NCBI GenBank assembly: GCA_025363695.1
Contig: JANYDI010000148.1
Location: 1-40,617 of the forward strand
Length of the DNA: 40,617 nt
Direction of reading: 5' to 3'
Origin: Opitutia bacterium
Lineage (GTDB): Bacteria; Verrucomicrobiota; Verrucomicrobiia; Opitutales; JANYDI01
A program made the translations under genes and the position numbers. Positions 12,347-40,617 of this stretch are shown one piece after another (the first letter of the stretch is position 1; each line of letters starts with the position of its first letter). The notes below the pieces were generated by a model that worked only from the letters and a program-made list of their open reading frames with translations, was not told the DNA's origin and made no database searches.

Positions 12347-12475
12347 AACTATTGATCTTTTGAAAGGATGGAGCGTACGCATTCATTTTTTTTTAGCAAG
12401 CTTTTTTTTGCTTTTTTGTTCAAAACACAAAAAATACTTCTATTTTCTGGATGATAGATTCATGAAATAAATAAT

Positions 12476-29664: not shown

Positions 29665-30168
29665 AAGGGGCGCTTGCGCCCCTTAGGATCCCCTACAGGT
29701 AGCGATTTTATAAAATGCGATGCATTTTAATAAAATCGCTACCTGGAAGGGCATACTAAGGCCTCCCAGATCCCTTCGGGATCGAAAATACTATTAACAA
29801 CAGTCCACACTTAAGGAGGCCTGAAAGACCGGCAGATGATAGCCCAGGGCGTAAGCCCTGGGTTTACGGCAAGAAATAAATTGGAGCCCTGTAAGGGCGG
29901 CACTCAGAACGTGAATGGGAGTGTCGCCCCTGTAGGGCTCAAAAATTTTTCTACCATGACCCAGGGCTCACGCCCTGGGCTATCATCTGCCGGCCCTTCA
30001 GGCCTCCTTAAGTGTGGTTTAATGAATGACTCATATGCTTATACTCGATCGCTTCGCGATCTGTGGGGCTCCTTGTATAGCCTATCCCGATAGCGATTTT
30101 CCTAAAATGCGCTAGCATTTTAGAAAATCGCTATCGGACAGGGGATCCAAGGGGCGCGAGCGCCCCTT
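29665..30168. repeat. Composite palindromic element E2 carrying a nested inner palindrome
   Basis: A 29665-29684; B 29696-29745; C 29769-29783; inner inverted-repeat unit 29805-30017; C' 30047-30061; B' 30087-30137; A' 30149-30168 (AAGGGGCGCG-A-GCGCCCCTT). Lies between convergent priA and rpmA. Confidence 0.9.
29805..30017. repeat. Inner palindromic unit nested in the centre of E2
   Basis: Arms CCACACTTAAGGAGGCCTGAAAGACCGGCAGATGATAG (29805-) and CTATCATCTGCCGGCCCTTCAGGCCTCCTTAAGTGTGG (-30017). Sub-hairpins CCCAGGGC-GTAA-GCCCTGGG (29843-29862) and CCCAGGGC-TCAC-GCCCTGGG (29960-29979). Central hairpin 29884-29905 / 29919-29940. Confidence 0.85.
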
Positions 30169-31006: not shown

Positions 31007-31101
31007 AAAGAGAGAGGATGCAAATAGCTTTCAGCATTTTTAGCAAGCTTTTTCTCTTTTTTTATCGTCTTAAACGTAATTTTCTCTTTATTTTAGACAT
31101 C

Positions 31102-33107: not shown

Positions 33108-33140
33108 GGCCCTTTCACTGAAATACTTTTCCTCGGGCCT

Positions 33141-33189
33141 AAAAAAAATAAACCCGAGAACCCATGTTGTGAACCACGGACTCTCGGGC
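33141..33189 (-). terminator. Intrinsic-terminator-like hairpin plus T-run (minus strand)
   Basis: Minus strand reads GCCCGAGAGTCCGTGG..loop..CATGGGTTCTCGGG followed by TTTATTTTTTTT. The G-T pairs in the stem are wobbles only in the minus-strand RNA (they are A-C mismatches on the plus strand). It lies 230 nt downstream of the kinase stop. Confidence 0.5.
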
Positions 33190-33271
33190 ATAACGTGAAC
33201 CTAACTGGGCGCCGTATGAACCTTATAAAACAGACTCTACAGCTCCGCAAGGGCGATTCCCGACTTGATAC
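33153..33271 (+). repeat. Family-2 repeat, copy 1 (hairpin ... AGCTCCGCAAGGGCGATTCCCGACTTGATAC)
   Basis: Matches the reverse complement of 40164-40282. Both copies have the CCCGAGAAC...TCTCGGG hairpin, a 45-50-nt spacer, then AGCTCCG(C/T)AAGGGCGATTC(C/T)CGACTTGATAC. Confidence 0.8.
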
Positions 33272-33419
33272 CTAATTCAATTTACTAAAACCTACCCCAC
33301 CACGAAAACATAAATTTCCTTAAAAAGCAAGCTTTTTTTAAAAATAGTTAAAAATAAGGTTCAAATTTTAAATGAATTTATTATTAAATTTAAAAATATT
33401 ATAATATATCTTTGAAACT

Positions 33420-36090: not shown

Positions 36091-36119
36091 ATTGTCCAAA
36101 AACCCACCCCCAAAAGCAA
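36091..36119 (-). promoter_or_regulatory. Candidate promoter of cysS
   Basis: Minus strand AAAAAACGC-TTGCTT (36119-36114) - 17 nt - GACAAT (36096-36091), then GGGGGG and the ATG at 36084. Confidence 0.3.
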
Positions 36120-36135
36120 GCGTTTTTTAAGGGCC

Positions 36136-37970: not shown

Positions 37971-39764
37971 TCATTGGTTCTTGAGAATCTGTACAAACGT
38001 CTCTTGCGGGATGTCTACTTTGCCGACGCGTTTCATACGTTTTTTGCCTTCTTTTTGTTTATCGAGGAGCTTGCGTTTTCGGCTGATGTCGCCGCCGTAG
38101 CACTTCGCGGTGACGTCTTTTCGGAAGGCATTGATGGTCTCGCGGGCGACGATCTTGCCGCCTACAGCCGCTTGGATAGCGATCTTGAACATTTGGCGAG
38201 GGAGGATTTGGCCTAGGCGTTCGCATAGGGAGCGTCCGCGGCTTTCGGCCTTGGATGCGTGCACGATGGAGGCAAAGGCGTCTACGGGCTCGGTGTTTAC
38301 GAGGATTTCCAGCTTGGTGAGCTTGGAGGGGATGTATTCGCCCAAGCAATAGTCCATGGAGCCGTAACCCTTGGTGATGCTTTTGAGGCGATCATGAAAG
38401 TCGACCAGAATTTCATTCAGCGGCAAGGTGCACGAGAGGATAACCCGTTGCGTATCAATGCTTTCGGTGCTTTCGTAGATGCCGCGTTTTTCCGAAATAA
38501 GGGTCATGAGCTCTCCAATACAAATATTGGGGATGATGATGGTGGCCTTGACGGTGGGCTCGTACATGGCTTTGATGATGGTAGGATCCGGCAGTTTTAG
38601 CGGGTTGTCGATCATGAGCGTTTTGCCAGCTTCGGTCTCGATACGGTACACCACGCTGGGATAGGTCGATATAATGTCCAAATCATACTCGCGCCGCAAG
38701 CGTTCCTGGACAATATCCATGTGCAAAAGCCCTAAAAACCCGCAACGAAAGCCAAAGCCCAGCGCGGTTGAGGATTCCGACTGATAGGTAAAAGCGGCAT
38801 CGTTGAGCCTGAGCTTGGCCACGCTGGCCTTGAGCTTTTCGTAGTCCGTGCTATCAATGGGGTAAATACCACTAAACACCATGGGCTGGATTTCCTTATA
38901 CCCAGGGAGCATTTCTTGGGCCGGATGCTCTAAATGCGTCAAGGTATCGCCGATTTTGATTTGCGATACTTCCCGTAAATTAGTAACAATGTAGCCTACT
39001 TGCCCAGAGCCCAAGGTGGCCTCTTGCCGCATTTGAGGCGAAAATACGCCGACTTCCTTCACCTGGGCCACCTGACCATCGCTCATCATCATGAGCATGT
39101 CATTTGCCCTTACCAAGCCCGAAAACACCCGCACATAGCAAATCACGCCACGATAGGCATCGTAAGCGCAATCAAAGATCAGCATGCGTGTTTGTGGGTA
39201 GTCGCCCCAACGCGGCCCTGGGAGGCGATGTGCCACGGCTTCCAAAATTTCTGAAATACCCAGGCGCGCCTTTCCGCTGGCCAACAGGGCATCATGGGCC
39301 GGAATGGCCAAGATGTCCTCGATCTCACGACGGCGTTTTTCCGGCTCGGCTCCGGGTAAATCAATTTTGTTGATGACCGGAATGACCGTAAGGCCTTGAT
39401 TGATCGCTAAATGGGCGTTGGCTACCGTCTGTGCCTCAATGCCTTGGGCGGCGTCCACCAGCAACAAGGCTCCCTCGCAAGCCGCCAAACTGCGGGATAC
39501 CTCATACGCAAAATCTACGTGTCCAGGCGTATCAATGAGGTTATACAACCAAGGCTCCGTGCTTCCCTTGGGCTGATAAAGCATCGATACGGGGTGACAC
39601 TTGATCGTTATACCGCGCTCACGCTCCAGGTCCATCGCATCCAGCAGGCACTCCTTCATCGCCCGCTTGTCGACCGTAGACGTTGCCTCCAGCAGGCAGT
39701 CCGACAAGGTCGTTTTCCCGTGGTCCACGTGTGCGATAATGCAAAAATTCCGAATCTCTCTCAT
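37971..39764 (-). CDS. lepA: Elongation factor 4 (LepA)
   Basis: IRNFCIIAHVDHGKTTLSD, DTPGHVDF, NKID motifs; 597 aa; lepA-lepB adjacency. Confidence 0.96.
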   Translation of the reverse strand: MREIRNFCIIAHVDHGKTTLSDCLLEATSTVDKRAMKECLLDAMDLERERGITIKCHPVSMLYQPKGSTEPWLYNLIDTPGHVDFAYEVSRSLAACEGALLLVDAAQGIEAQTVANAHLAINQGLTVIPVINKIDLPGAEPEKRRREIEDILAIPAHDALLASGKARLGISEILEAVAHRLPGPRWGDYPQTRMLIFDCAYDAYRGVICYVRVFSGLVRANDMLMMMSDGQVAQVKEVGVFSPQMRQEATLGSGQVGYIVTNLREVSQIKIGDTLTHLEHPAQEMLPGYKEIQPMVFSGIYPIDSTDYEKLKASVAKLRLNDAAFTYQSESSTALGFGFRCGFLGLLHMDIVQERLRREYDLDIISTYPSVVYRIETEAGKTLMIDNPLKLPDPTIIKAMYEPTVKATIIIPNICIGELMTLISEKRGIYESTESIDTQRVILSCTLPLNEILVDFHDRLKSITKGYGSMDYCLGEYIPSKLTKLEILVNTEPVDAFASIVHASKAESRGRSLCERLGQILPRQMFKIAIQAAVGGKIVARETINAFRKDVTAKCYGGDISRKRKLLDKQKEGKKRMKRVGKVDIPQETFVQILKNQ

Positions 39765-39776
39765 GCTTGTGTCGAT

Positions 39777-39805
39777 AGGTTAGGCAGCGTTGGCCGCAAA
39801 AGCAA
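39777..39805 (-). promoter_or_regulatory. Candidate promoter of lepA
   Basis: Minus strand AAAAAAACTTTCGC-TTGCTT (39805-39800) - 17 nt - TAACCT (39782-39777), then 12 nt to the ATG at 39764. Confidence 0.3.
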
Positions 39806-39818
39806 GCGAAAGTTTTTT

Positions 39819-39902
39819 TAGGGGGCGCTTGCGCCCCCTAAAACCCCCATTCCGATAGCGATTTATTAAAATGCTAACGCATTTTAGATAAATCGCTATC
39901 GG
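39819..39902. repeat. Half element E7 (A-B only)
   Basis: A variant 39819-39840 TAGGGGGCGC-TT-GCGCCCCCTA; B 39852-39902 CCGATAGCGATTTATTAAAATGC-TAAC-GCATTTTAGATAAATCGCTATCGG. Confidence 0.85.
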
Positions 39903-39987
39903 GAATGGTGTTCTAGGATCAATGATGTATTGTGATATTTATTTGATTTTATGATAAATTTTAGGAATTTCGAGGACAATTTTCATG

Positions 39988-40049
39988 AAAAAGCCCTGCT
40001 CCCTACGCCAAGGCTCCGGAGAGCCAAGAGTTTTAGTGAGCAGGGCTTT
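39988..40049 (-). terminator. Hairpin plus T5, terminator-like on the minus strand
   Basis: Minus strand AAAGCCCTGCTC (40049-40038) ... GAGCAGGGCTTTTT (40001-39988). This is a 12-bp stem whose 36-nt loop holds the inner hairpin GGCTC-CGGA-GAGCC (40012-40025). Confidence 0.4.
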
Positions 40050-40163
40050 AAGCGTGAAGTATTCTCAATAGATCTTTTTAAGTTTTAAGCGTGTAAGGGC
40101 GATTCTCTTGTTGATTTATGCTTGTAGGCTTAGGCTTTTGTGGATGGAATTGGTTATTAAAGT

Positions 40164-40282
40164 ATCAAGTCGAGAATCGCCCTTACGGAGCTCTAAAGTT
40201 TTATTTAGTCTAACCTATCTTTGTGTAAAGACAGGGGGTCAGGACGCCCGAGAACACGTATTCACGATCTGAGTTCTCGGGC
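40164..40282 (-). repeat. Family-2 repeat, copy 2 (inverted relative to copy 1)
   Basis: Plus strand ATCAAGTCGAGAATCGCCCTTACGGAGCT ... GCCCGAGAAC (40246-40255) ... GTTCTCGGGC (40273-40282). This is the reverse complement of the pattern at 33153-33271. Confidence 0.8.
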
Positions 40283-40470
40283 TGAATTCGCTTCTTAAGC
40301 CGGTGAGAAAGGATTGTGGTAAGTTCCATGGTATCAAATCCGGGCATTATTTCGAGTAAAAGAACTTGGTCGTTTTGGGTTTTCATGATGATTTTTTTGG
40401 AGAAAAGGAGGGCCCTTGGAGGGGGAATTTTTTTACCGCTGGCCAGCCGTGTTTTGTCCCTGTCCCCACA

Positions 40471-40498
40471 ATTATACCAAAAAAATGTCGATTGTCAA
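40471..40498 (-). promoter_or_regulatory. Near-perfect sigma70 promoter with extended -10 and an upstream A/T (UP-like) tract
   Basis: Minus strand reads AAAAAAATTTAAATTTTTTCAAAAAACCCC-TTGACA (40498-40493) - 16 nt ending in TGG - TATAAT (40476-40471) - TGTGGGGA. Both hexamers match consensus; TGn lies before the -10; phased A/T tracts lie at -40 to -70; the discriminator is G-rich. Confidence 0.6.
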
Positions 40499-40617
40499 GG
40501 GGTTTTTTGAAAAAATTTAAATTTTTTTAAAAAAAAGTTTAGGGCGTAAATGAGAATTTGGTATTGATAGGTAACCTAAGGAACGGGGTGGAAATGACCT
40601 AAGTTGTTGATTAAAAA

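What the first reader, a model, noticed from the sequence alone, without database searches (positions are those of the whole stretch)
39988..40560. Textbook strong promoter in a gene-free tail drives a ~480-nt region with no convincing ORF
The last 850 bp (39765-40617) contain no credible gene. Yet the minus strand shows TTGACA - 16 nt (ending TGG) - TATAAT (40498-40471), preceded by about 35 nt of phased A/T tracts and followed by a G-rich discriminator. This is by far the best promoter match in the window, and such promoters typically belong to stable or very abundant RNAs. Downstream lie several palindromic motifs (GCTGGCCAGC, AGGGCCCT), family-2 repeat copy 2 and a hairpin with a 15-bp perfect core (40093-40107 / 40172-40186). 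The region ends in a 12-bp-stem hairpin followed by TTTTT (40049-39988). Directly after that hairpin there is another promoter-like pair, TTGTCC-17-TATCAT (39979-39951), facing lepA. The only ORF is 58 aa (40386-40210) with no SD, and it overlaps the repeat hairpin. I could not find the invariant tmRNA, RNase P (GGAAAGUCC) or SRP (GGAAGCAGC-type) blocks.
Basis: partly seen in the sequence, partly recalled or inferred. Interest (0 to 1): 0.65.

Follow-up and report, generated by a model that had tools for sequence, protein, structure and literature searches.

The report
Repeat-built orphan transcription unit upstream of lepA
The gene-free tail really does hold a near-perfect promoter and a terminator around about 475 non-coding bases, but the block is one copy of a repeat family private to an uncultured Opitutae bacterium, not a missing housekeeping RNA.

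Summary
TTGACA-16(TG)-TATAAT at 40498-40471 (minus strand) is the only 12/12 promoter match in the window; 0.02 are expected by chance. It has a UP-like A/T block and is followed about 475 nt later by a strong hairpin plus T5. No Rfam family, tmRNA or tRNA matches, and the 58-aa ORF has no real homologue and no confident fold.

The unit is not unique. Metagenome contigs from the samples that hold this organism cover about 39928-40570 with at least 7 variants at 84-92% identity, while the adjacent lepA is one clean contig. The middle of the unit (40090-40320) recurs at 33120-33330 in the opposite orientation to transcription, where its hairpin serves as a terminator. It recurs again on another contig of the same genome. 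Hairpin 2 looks like a local MITE.

In 12 of 14 Opitutae relatives fabD sits 18-98 nt upstream of lepA, so the tail is a lineage-specific insertion. Nothing similar exists in JGI metagenomes, phages, plasmids or the relatives' lepA loci.

Best reading (about 0.5): a multi-copy, repeat-derived non-coding promoter-to-terminator cassette, comparable to promoter-bearing MITEs that give sRNAs.

The parts
40499..40570 (-). Upstream edge of the repeated unit, with a UP-element-like A/T block directly before the -35
   Evidence: Sequence. The 40 nt before the -35 are 85% A+T. Variant contigs turn unlike the window at 40564-40570, with 3-4 different neighbours there.
40471..40498 (-). Core sigma-70-type promoter TTGACA-16 nt (TG)-TATAAT
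   Evidence: 12/12 match. It is the only match of 11/12 or better in the window; 0.023 are expected by chance. The -35 and the TG are unchanged, and there are no indels, in at least 8 variant contigs. One contig has TAAAAT as its -10.
39988..40464 (-). Predicted non-coding transcript of about 475 nt (inferred start about 7 nt after the -10)
   Evidence: Fold -128.5 kcal/mol, z -4.3 to -5.3. No Rfam match. The start and the end are inferred, not observed.
40435..40450 (.). 16-nt near-palindrome ACGGCTGGCCAGCGGT at about +15 to +30; possible protein-binding site
   Evidence: I15. The core GCTGGCCAGC is kept in two of three variant loose ends, with one change in the third (AGTTGGCCAGC).
40400..40435 (-). 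36-nt segment with a small C-rich hairpin, missing from one variant copy
   Evidence: Joint 40399>40436 in X3 and the loose end at 40399.
40210..40386 (-). 58-aa ORF, judged not to be a gene
   Evidence: No Pfam match. No homologue among 5.8 billion proteins. phmmer over 1.84 billion representatives found only a spurious tandem-repeat ORF. AF2 pLDDT is 54. Variable sites fall 3/7/7 over codon positions, P=0.33. The frame is broken in copy 1 and one variant has a 4-nt deletion at 40224.
40090..40320 (-). Family-2 repeat body: hairpin 1, the conserved core GCTCCGTAAGGGCGATTCTCGACTTGATAC, and an AT-rich stretch
   Evidence: 78% identical to 33120-33330(+). Shares short words with the orphan unit on another contig of the same genome. 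Summed depth up to 346 against 13.5 for lepA in X1.
40246..40282 (.). Hairpin 1, 10-bp perfect stem GCCCGAGAAC/GTTCTCGGGC
   Evidence: I10. No variant is listed across 40237-40300 in the metagenome contigs.
40093..40186 (.). Hairpin 2: 15-bp GC-rich arms around an AT-rich centre; looks like a resident MITE
Evidence: z -6.3. The arms are almost unchanged (one X3 contig differs at 40103-40104) and very deep, while the centre is hypervariable with indels.
39988..40049 (-). Intrinsic-terminator-like Y-shaped hairpin followed by TTTTT
   Evidence: -35.5 kcal/mol, z -5.5. An exact contig exists in X3. Another copy carries a different, simpler hairpin on the same GCCC/GGGC base at the same place, next to the same T-run site (loose end at 39996).
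39928..39987 (-). AT-rich tail of the repeated unit with weak promoter-like motifs facing lepA
   Evidence: Three overlapping 9/12 matches, no better than shuffles give. The stretch is itself multi-copy, with edges at 39928/39935 and three different neighbours.
39802..39917 (.). Separate hairpin-mosaic repeat element between the unit and lepA
   Evidence: Repeat families D4, D6 and D10 and inverted pairs I6 and I21; blastn matches.
33120..33330 (+). Copy 1 of the family-2 body, without promoter. Its hairpin 1 reads as a terminator on the opposite (minus) strand, behind the kinase gene
   Evidence: Alignment A1. A 15-pair stem followed by TTATTTTTTT on the minus strand.

Best explanation
The tail holds one copy of a lineage-specific, multi-copy, non-coding cassette of about 640 bp (about 40570 to 39928, minus strand). 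It was inserted, together with other repeats, into what is a tight fabD-lepA junction in most related Opitutae.

The cassette carries its own near-ideal sigma-70 promoter: a UP-like A/T block, TTGACA, a 16-nt spacer with TG, and TATAAT. RNA polymerase would start near 40464. It would transcribe about 475 nt made largely of dispersed-repeat modules: the family-2 body with hairpin 1, and a MITE-like hairpin 2. Most of it would stop at the Y-shaped hairpin plus U5 near 39990.

The product would be a highly folded, probably abundant RNA with no protein product. It is a repeat-derived small-RNA-type gene, or a selfish transcribed repeat, of the kind known from promoter-bearing MITEs. Terminator read-through, or the weak promoter-like motifs in the cassette's AT-rich tail, may supply transcription to lepA-lepB, which has lost its usual upstream neighbour.

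Shown: the sequence features, multi-copy status, modular repeat make-up, absence of coding or known-RNA signal, and the synteny break. Inferred: that the promoter fires, where the RNA starts and ends, and any function of the RNA.
For: - Promoter 12/12, unique in the window, chance expectation 0.023.
- Hairpin plus T5 terminator. Another copy has a different hairpin top on the same base at the same T-run site, which suggests that termination is kept.
- Multi-copy status in run X1. lepA is one 1783-nt contig with 0 differences and depth 13.5. In contrast, 39928-40570 is covered by many 50-200-nt contigs at 84-92% identity, depth 4-50 each, summing to 100-350. At position 40487, 7 contigs all differ from the window.
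- The variants are also seen in X3 at about the organism's own depth.
- The body recurs at 33120-33330 and in an orphan promoter-to-terminator unit on another contig of the same genome.
- The -35 and TG are unchanged, the -10 changes once, and there is no indel between the hexamers among variants.
- No ORF support.
- No known RNA family.
- In 12 of 14 relatives fabD is 18-98 nt upstream of lepA, and there is no fabD remnant here.
- Precedent: QMITE1 of Coxiella carries sigma-70 promoters and gives rise to sRNAs (PMC5896051).
Against: - No RNA data of any kind, so transcription is unproven.
- No covariation. Nearly all stem positions are unchanged among the copies seen, which says nothing for or against RNA structure.
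- The excess conservation of promoter positions is not significant on its own (1 of 14 against 26 of 102 variable sites, P=0.11).
- The family-2 body occurs in the opposite orientation to transcription at 33120-33330. The body is therefore not an RNA gene with a fixed sense.
- No terminal inverted repeats or target duplications mark the cassette edges, so how it multiplies is unknown.
- Copy counts rest on depths of short Logan contigs. Some copies may lie in other replicons or organisms. For example, a 1306-nt contig of depth 92.5 in X1 shares 39928-39975, and no such copy was laid in X3.
- The exact letters of 40400-40617 are not reproduced by any contig.
Confidence: 0.5

Rival explanations
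1. Long leader or attenuator of the lepA-lepB operon. The strong promoter is the operon's real promoter. The 475-nt structured RNA is a 5' leader, and its hairpin plus U5 is a regulated or leaky terminator that sets how much polymerase reaches lepA.
For: - The promoter, the terminator and lepA are all on the minus strand, with no other convincing lepA promoter. The alternatives score only 9/12, at chance level.
- lepA has lost the fabD neighbour that precedes it by 18-98 nt in most relatives, so it needs a new source of transcription.
Against: - The block is multi-copy with different downstream neighbours, so it did not evolve as a lepA leader.
- No relative has any long lepA leader, and none has similar DNA.
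- The terminator is strong (-35.5 kcal/mol).
- A further hairpin repeat lies between it and lepA.
Confidence: 0.15
2. No function at all. A chance or decaying promoter sits in stacked junk repeats at a contig end, and part of the sequence may be a chimeric assembly path through paralogous repeats.
For: - The contig ends in repeats. The letters beyond 40617 match the arm of the Acido-Lenti-1-bearing inverted repeat at 26 of 30 positions.
- No exact contig supports 40400-40617.
- The tail is a patchwork of modules with different depths.
Against: - A 12/12 promoter with TG and a UP-like block is expected 0.001 times in the tail.
- The -35 hexamer and the TG are the same in every variant contig, and the -10 changes in only one, so they are not an assembly artefact.
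- The promoter-body-terminator order recurs at a second locus of the genome.
- Another copy keeps a hairpin next to the same T-run site with a different stem top.
Confidence: 0.2
3. A small-protein gene family. The unit is an mRNA for the 58-aa product (40386-40210), translated without an SD as most genes here are.
For: - Most genes of the window lack an SD.
- No indel was seen in 40262-40399 in five variant contigs that differ at 8-13 positions.
- The ATG and the first 13 codons lie in a conserved, deep stretch.
Against: - No homologue in two exhaustive protein searches; the single hit is a spurious tandem-repeat translation.
- No Pfam match. AF2 gives pLDDT 54 with one short helix.
- Variable sites show no third-position excess (3/7/7, P=0.33).
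- The frame is broken in copy 1, and one variant has a 4-nt deletion at 40224.
- The ORF overlaps the most conserved hairpin of a repeat that also works in the opposite orientation.
Confidence: 0.07

Closest known systems
QMITE1 of Coxiella burnetii, the source of sRNAs CbsR3 and CbsR13 (Wachter et al. 2018, PMC5896051)
   Same: A multi-copy, non-coding intergenic repeat of a few hundred bp that carries sigma-70 promoters. It is transcribed at several loci, gives rise to small RNAs, and may influence neighbouring genes.
   Different: QMITE1 is a typical MITE with short direct repeats, about 50 copies and 300-400 bp. This unit is about 640 bp and shows no terminal inverted repeats or target duplications. 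It has its own terminator, contains another MITE-like hairpin as a passenger, and has perhaps 5-20 copies. Its transcription is unproven.
Correia repeat-enclosed elements of Neisseria, and small repeats such as REP/BIME, ERIC, BOX, RUP and BRE of Bordetella (PMC3184786; PMC3110155)
   Same: Lineage-restricted intergenic repeats built of hairpins. They can supply promoters or terminators and appear inside sRNAs. Copy 1 of the body here acts as a terminator-like hairpin behind a gene.
   Different: Those elements are 35-160 bp single modules. This is a composite promoter-to-terminator cassette several times larger.
Multi-copy sRNA gene families whose copies each have their own promoter and terminator (for example Qrr1-5, LhrC1-5, cyanobacterial Yfr2 family; own knowledge)
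   Same: Several diverged copies per genome, each a self-contained non-coding transcription unit.
   Different: Those RNAs are 50-120 nt, conserved across genera, and have a conserved single-stranded seed. This one is about 475 nt, is made of repeat modules, and was not found outside one organism.
Housekeeping stable RNAs with strong promoters (tmRNA, RNase P RNA, SRP RNA, 6S RNA)
   Same: A near-consensus promoter with a UP-like block, a structured RNA of a few hundred nt, and its own terminator.
   Different: No match to any Rfam model or to ARAGORN. The unit is multi-copy, not conserved in relatives, and sits in an insertion that relatives lack.

Membership tests
Known structured RNA families (Rfam 15: tmRNA, RNase P, SRP, 6S, large ncRNAs, ribozymes, group II intron domains) | Match to the family covariance model at or near its gathering score | tested here: not met
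   cmscan of 39000-40617 at E<=10 gave only chance hairpin hits far below gathering scores. The whole window at gathering score gave 2 tRNAs and 2 Acido-Lenti-1 hits elsewhere. ARAGORN found no tmRNA.
Sigma-70 promoter with UP element | -35 TTGACA, 16-18 nt spacer, -10 TATAAT; optional TG and an A/T-rich block at -40 to -60 | tested here: met
   12/12 with TG and a 16-nt spacer. The 40 nt upstream are 85% A+T. Activity was not tested.
Intrinsic (Rho-independent) terminator | Stable GC-rich hairpin directly followed by a U run on the transcribed strand | tested here: met
   39990-40049 folds at -35.5 kcal/mol and is followed by UUUUU on the minus strand only. The simple scan missed it because its loop exceeds 8 nt. 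The U run is short (5).
MITE | Multi-copy, non-coding, under about 600 bp | tested here: met
   At least 7 variant contigs, no credible ORF. The unit of about 640 bp is at the upper size limit.
MITE | Terminal inverted repeats at the element's ends | tested here: not met
   No inverted repeat joins the edges at about 40570 and about 39928. Only internal hairpins are present.
MITE | Target-site duplications flanking each copy | tested here: inconclusive
   None is visible at this copy. The other copies are known only from 30-letter loose ends.
REP/BIME/REPIN | Short palindromic units, in inverted doublets, mobilised by a RAYT (Y1) transposase | not testable with these tools
Type I toxin-antitoxin locus | Small hydrophobic toxin ORF (under 60 aa) plus an overlapping antisense RNA with its own promoter | tested here: not met
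   The 58-aa ORF is hydrophilic with one short predicted helix. No promoter-like site of 9/12 or better lies on the plus strand in 38500-40617.
Small protein gene | ORF kept open in paralogues, with third-position bias and homologues | tested here: not met
Conserved structured ncRNA (Weinberg/Breaker-type motif) | Conservation across species with compensatory base changes in the stems | tested here: not met
   No similar DNA in 80 lepA loci of relatives, JGI metagenomes, viral contigs, phages or plasmids. Nearly all stem positions are unchanged among the copies seen, so there is no covariation.

The most novel reading that the evidence does not exclude
The cassette is a true multi-copy RNA gene family private to this Opitutae lineage. 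Each copy would make an abundant, about 0.5-kb folded RNA from a maximal promoter. The RNA would act in trans, for example as a regulator or as an RNA partner (guide, template or decoy) of the machinery that spreads the genome's hairpin repeats. That would explain why promoter, body and terminator are copied and kept together.
Probability: 0.12. Interest if true: 0.6.

Novelty: new member of a known kind. Interest (0 to 1): 0.3.

Why it matters
As it stands, little. The work removes a candidate 'missing stable RNA' and files it with repeat-derived transcription units, which are known from Coxiella, Neisseria and others.

It does add two points. An uncultured Opitutae genome carries a family of self-contained promoter-to-terminator cassettes, not just bare hairpin repeats. 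Such a cassette has also replaced the usual fabD neighbour upstream of the essential-type lepA-lepB pair, so it may now supply their transcription.

If the RNA proved abundant and the family were kept by selection, it would be a case of repeats turned into regulatory RNA genes in a poorly studied phylum.

Tried and rejected
1. Known RNA: cmscan at E<=10 and at gathering score, plus ARAGORN, found nothing.
The exact lepA product is not on record.
3. Copies elsewhere:
   - The exact 43-nt promoter was not found in GTDB genomes.
   - A degenerate promoter pattern and a body-core pattern were not found in JGI metagenomes.
   - The body core and a neighbour 25-mer were not found in viral contigs.
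   - blastn against phages and plasmids found nothing.
   - blastn and nhmmer against 80 lepA loci found nothing.
4. RNA evidence: no RNA run holds the stretch.
5. Small protein: see the rival explanation. The phmmer hit P0001 is a translated tandem DNA repeat, not a homologue.
6. Decayed fabD pseudogene in the tail: tblastn with four relatives' FabD proteins gave nothing.
7. 'Portable promoter driving different genes': rejected. The copies that diverge just downstream of the promoter (at 40452) or at 40192 do so into similar MITE-like ends (CCTGTTTTWAYGG...GGGTTATGT). These are MITE insertions into other copies, not other genes.
8. A larger mobile element continuing downstream: a 1306-nt contig of depth 92.5 in X1 shares 39928-39975, but no such copy was laid in X3, where the organism is present. 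It probably belongs to another replicon or organism, and its content could not be read.
9. Strand of function from G-U pairs: both strands of the unit fold about equally well.
10. An apparent G-C to A-U compensatory pair (40467/40422) was discarded because 40467 lies upstream of the inferred start.

Full report
**1. Observation**

- The consensus scan returns TTGACA-16-TATAAT with TG before the -10 at 40498-40471, scoring 12/12.
- My own scan of the whole window on both strands finds no other match of 11/12 or better; thirteen matches score 10/12.
- From base composition, a 12/12 match is expected 0.023 times in the window and 0.001 times in the tail.
- The 40 nt upstream are 85% A+T, in A and T runs. 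By my own knowledge of the Estrem/Gourse consensus, they fit most specified positions of a UP element.
- About 475 nt downstream lies a Y-shaped hairpin (39990-40049, -35.5 kcal/mol, z -5.5). It is followed by UUUUU on the minus strand only.
- The whole predicted transcript folds with z -4.3 to -5.3. The signal comes mainly from three perfect palindromes, and the opposite strand folds about as well, so it does not identify the functional strand.
- The lepA-facing TTGTCC-17-TATCAT scores 9/12, which is no better than shuffles give.

**2. Not a known RNA and not a protein gene**

- cmscan against Rfam 15 at E<=10 gave only chance hairpin hits. At gathering score the window holds two tRNAs and two Acido-Lenti-1 motifs, all elsewhere. 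ARAGORN finds no tmRNA.
- The 58-aa ORF (40386-40210) has no Pfam match and no homologue among 5.8 billion proteins.
- An exhaustive phmmer search of 1.84 billion representatives gave a single hit, which is a translated tandem DNA repeat.
- AlphaFold2 gives pLDDT 54.
- Lack of an SD is not an argument either way, because most genes here lack one.
- Among paralogous variants, the 17 variable sites in the ORF fall 3/7/7 over codon positions (P=0.33). One variant has a 4-nt deletion at 40224, and the in-window copy of the repeat breaks the frame.

**3. The unit is a repeat**

The organism is an uncultured Opitutae (Verrucomicrobiota) bacterium. Its best lepA relative is 70% identical. Only DNA runs from rock and sediment metagenomes hold it, and no RNA run does.

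Logan contigs of these runs were laid on the tail, with these results:

- In X1, lepA sits on one 1783-nt contig with 0 differences and depth 13.5.
- The stretch 39928-40570 is covered by many 50-200-nt contigs at 84-92% identity, depth 4-50 each, summing to 100-350.
- At 40487, seven contigs all read a base different from the window.
- No long, slightly diverged lepA contig appears. The variants are therefore not close relatives of the organism but extra copies of the tail.
- In X3 the variants have about the organism's own depth.
- The variants turn unlike the window at 40564-40570, with 3-4 different neighbours, and at 39928/39935, with three neighbours. This delimits a block of about 640 bp that includes the promoter, the transcribed part, the terminator and the AT-rich tail with the weak promoter-like motifs.
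- Two copies continue to 40615 and then, like the window presumably, run into an arm of the Acido-Lenti-1-bearing inverted repeat. The 30 letters beyond the window match 29805(+) and 29988(-) at 26 of 30 positions. This explains why the contig ends there.
- Some copies are interrupted at 40192 or 40452 by similar MITE-like ends. One lacks 40400-40435. One lacks the terminator hairpin. Another has a simpler hairpin on the same GCCC/GGGC base next to the same T-run site.

**4. Modular make-up**

- 40320-40090(-) aligns at 78% with 33120-33330(+) (seed match). The two share hairpin 1 and the core GCTCCGYAAGGGCGATTCYCGACTTGATAC.
- Copy 1 has no promoter. On the minus strand, opposite to the sense of the tail unit, its hairpin 1 is a 15-pair stem followed by TTATTTTTTT behind the kinase gene. 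The body therefore works in either orientation, as REP-type repeats do.
- The arms of hairpin 2 are almost unchanged and are the deepest part of the unit (up to 346). Its AT-rich centre is hypervariable with indels.
- An earlier finding on another contig of the same genome describes an orphan unit of about 410 nt with a consensus promoter and a terminator. It shares short words with both the hairpin-1 and the hairpin-2 parts of my unit, but none with the promoter module.
- The promoter-body-terminator order therefore recurs, but the body is a generic repeat.
- No terminal inverted repeats or target duplications mark the block.

**5. Context**

- In 12 of 14 Opitutae loci a fabD-type acyltransferase gene ends 18-98 nt before lepA. 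The other two gaps are 207 and 350 nt. lepB follows lepA.
- Here more than 850 nt of repeat DNA stands in that place, and no fabD remnant is present.
- Nothing like the tail occurs in those loci, in JGI metagenomes, in viral contigs, or in phages or plasmids.

**6. Interpretation**

The most likely reading (about 0.5) is a lineage-specific, multi-copy, repeat-derived non-coding cassette that makes a folded RNA of about 475 nt from a maximal promoter. Its closest known analogue is QMITE1 of Coxiella, a MITE with sigma-70 promoters that gives sRNAs (PMC5896051). Looser analogues are Correia elements and the BRE repeat of Bordetella (PMC3184786; PMC3110155).

Weak support for selection on expression comes from three observations. 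The -35 and the TG never vary. The -10 varies once, conservatively. There are no indels between the hexamers. However, the contrast with the other positions is not significant (P=0.11).

Rival readings are a co-opted lepA leader or promoter donor (0.15), functionless junk or partial assembly chimera (0.2), and a small-protein gene (0.07).

**7. Limits**

- There are no RNA data.
- Paralogues are known only as differences and 30-letter loose ends.
- Copy numbers rest on Logan depths.
- 40400-40617 is not reproduced exactly by any contig.

**8. Verdict**

The 'novel stable RNA' reading is only partly supported. The unit is a new member of a known kind, and interest is about 0.3.

Noticed in passing
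window 29817-29862 (-) and 29960-30005 (+); also just beyond 40617: The two Acido-Lenti-1 RNA hits (Rfam RF01687, 55 and 61 bits) are the two arms of one 213-bp inverted-repeat unit nested in a hairpin-mosaic repeat. Another copy abuts the window's end, and two paralogous copies of the tail unit have the same neighbour. In this Verrucomicrobiota genome the motif therefore behaves as part of a dispersed palindromic repeat. Its listed taxa are Acidobacteria and Lentisphaerae (PMC2864571).
   Followed up: partly
window 39765-40617 against loci L001-L028 upstream of lepA: There is a synteny break. In 12 of 14 Opitutae relatives fabD ends 18-98 nt before lepA, but here fabD is absent from the window and repeats fill the place.
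   Followed up: yes
window 33152-33189 (-): Hairpin 1 of family-2 copy 1 is a 15-pair stem followed by TTATTTTTTT on the minus strand, directly behind the Hanks-type kinase gene. It is a repeat module serving as that gene's likely terminator.
   Followed up: partly
window 39928-39975: A 1306-nt Logan contig of depth 92.5 in run X1 (about 7 times the organism's depth) shares this 48-nt AT-rich stretch with 2 differences and then continues into unrelated sequence. No such copy was laid in X3. It may be another replicon, phage or organism carrying the same module; its content could not be read.
   Followed up: partly
window 40435-40450: A 16-nt near-palindrome, ACGGCTGGCCAGCGGT, lies at about +15 to +30 of the predicted transcript. 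Its 10-nt core is kept in two of three variant loose ends, with one change in the third. It could be an operator or a restriction/modification site (TGGCCA).
   Followed up: no
window 40047-40056 and 40084-40093: A perfect 10-nt direct repeat, TTTAAGCGTG, stands next to the terminator hairpin and next to hairpin 2, 27 nt apart. One variant copy lacks 39992-40068.
   Followed up: no
loose end behind 40569 in run X1: One paralogous copy is flanked upstream by a divergent gene start with a strong SD (AAGGAGGTGAAAATGAAC). This is unlike the SD-poor genes of this window, which hints that this copy sits in foreign or mobile DNA.
   Followed up: no
window 12390-12416, 31037-31063, 33322-33344, 36111-36133: A short motif, AAAAAGCAAGCTTTTTT (a palindromic A-run/T-run hairpin), recurs behind genes. 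It may be a bidirectional terminator motif of this genome.
   Followed up: no
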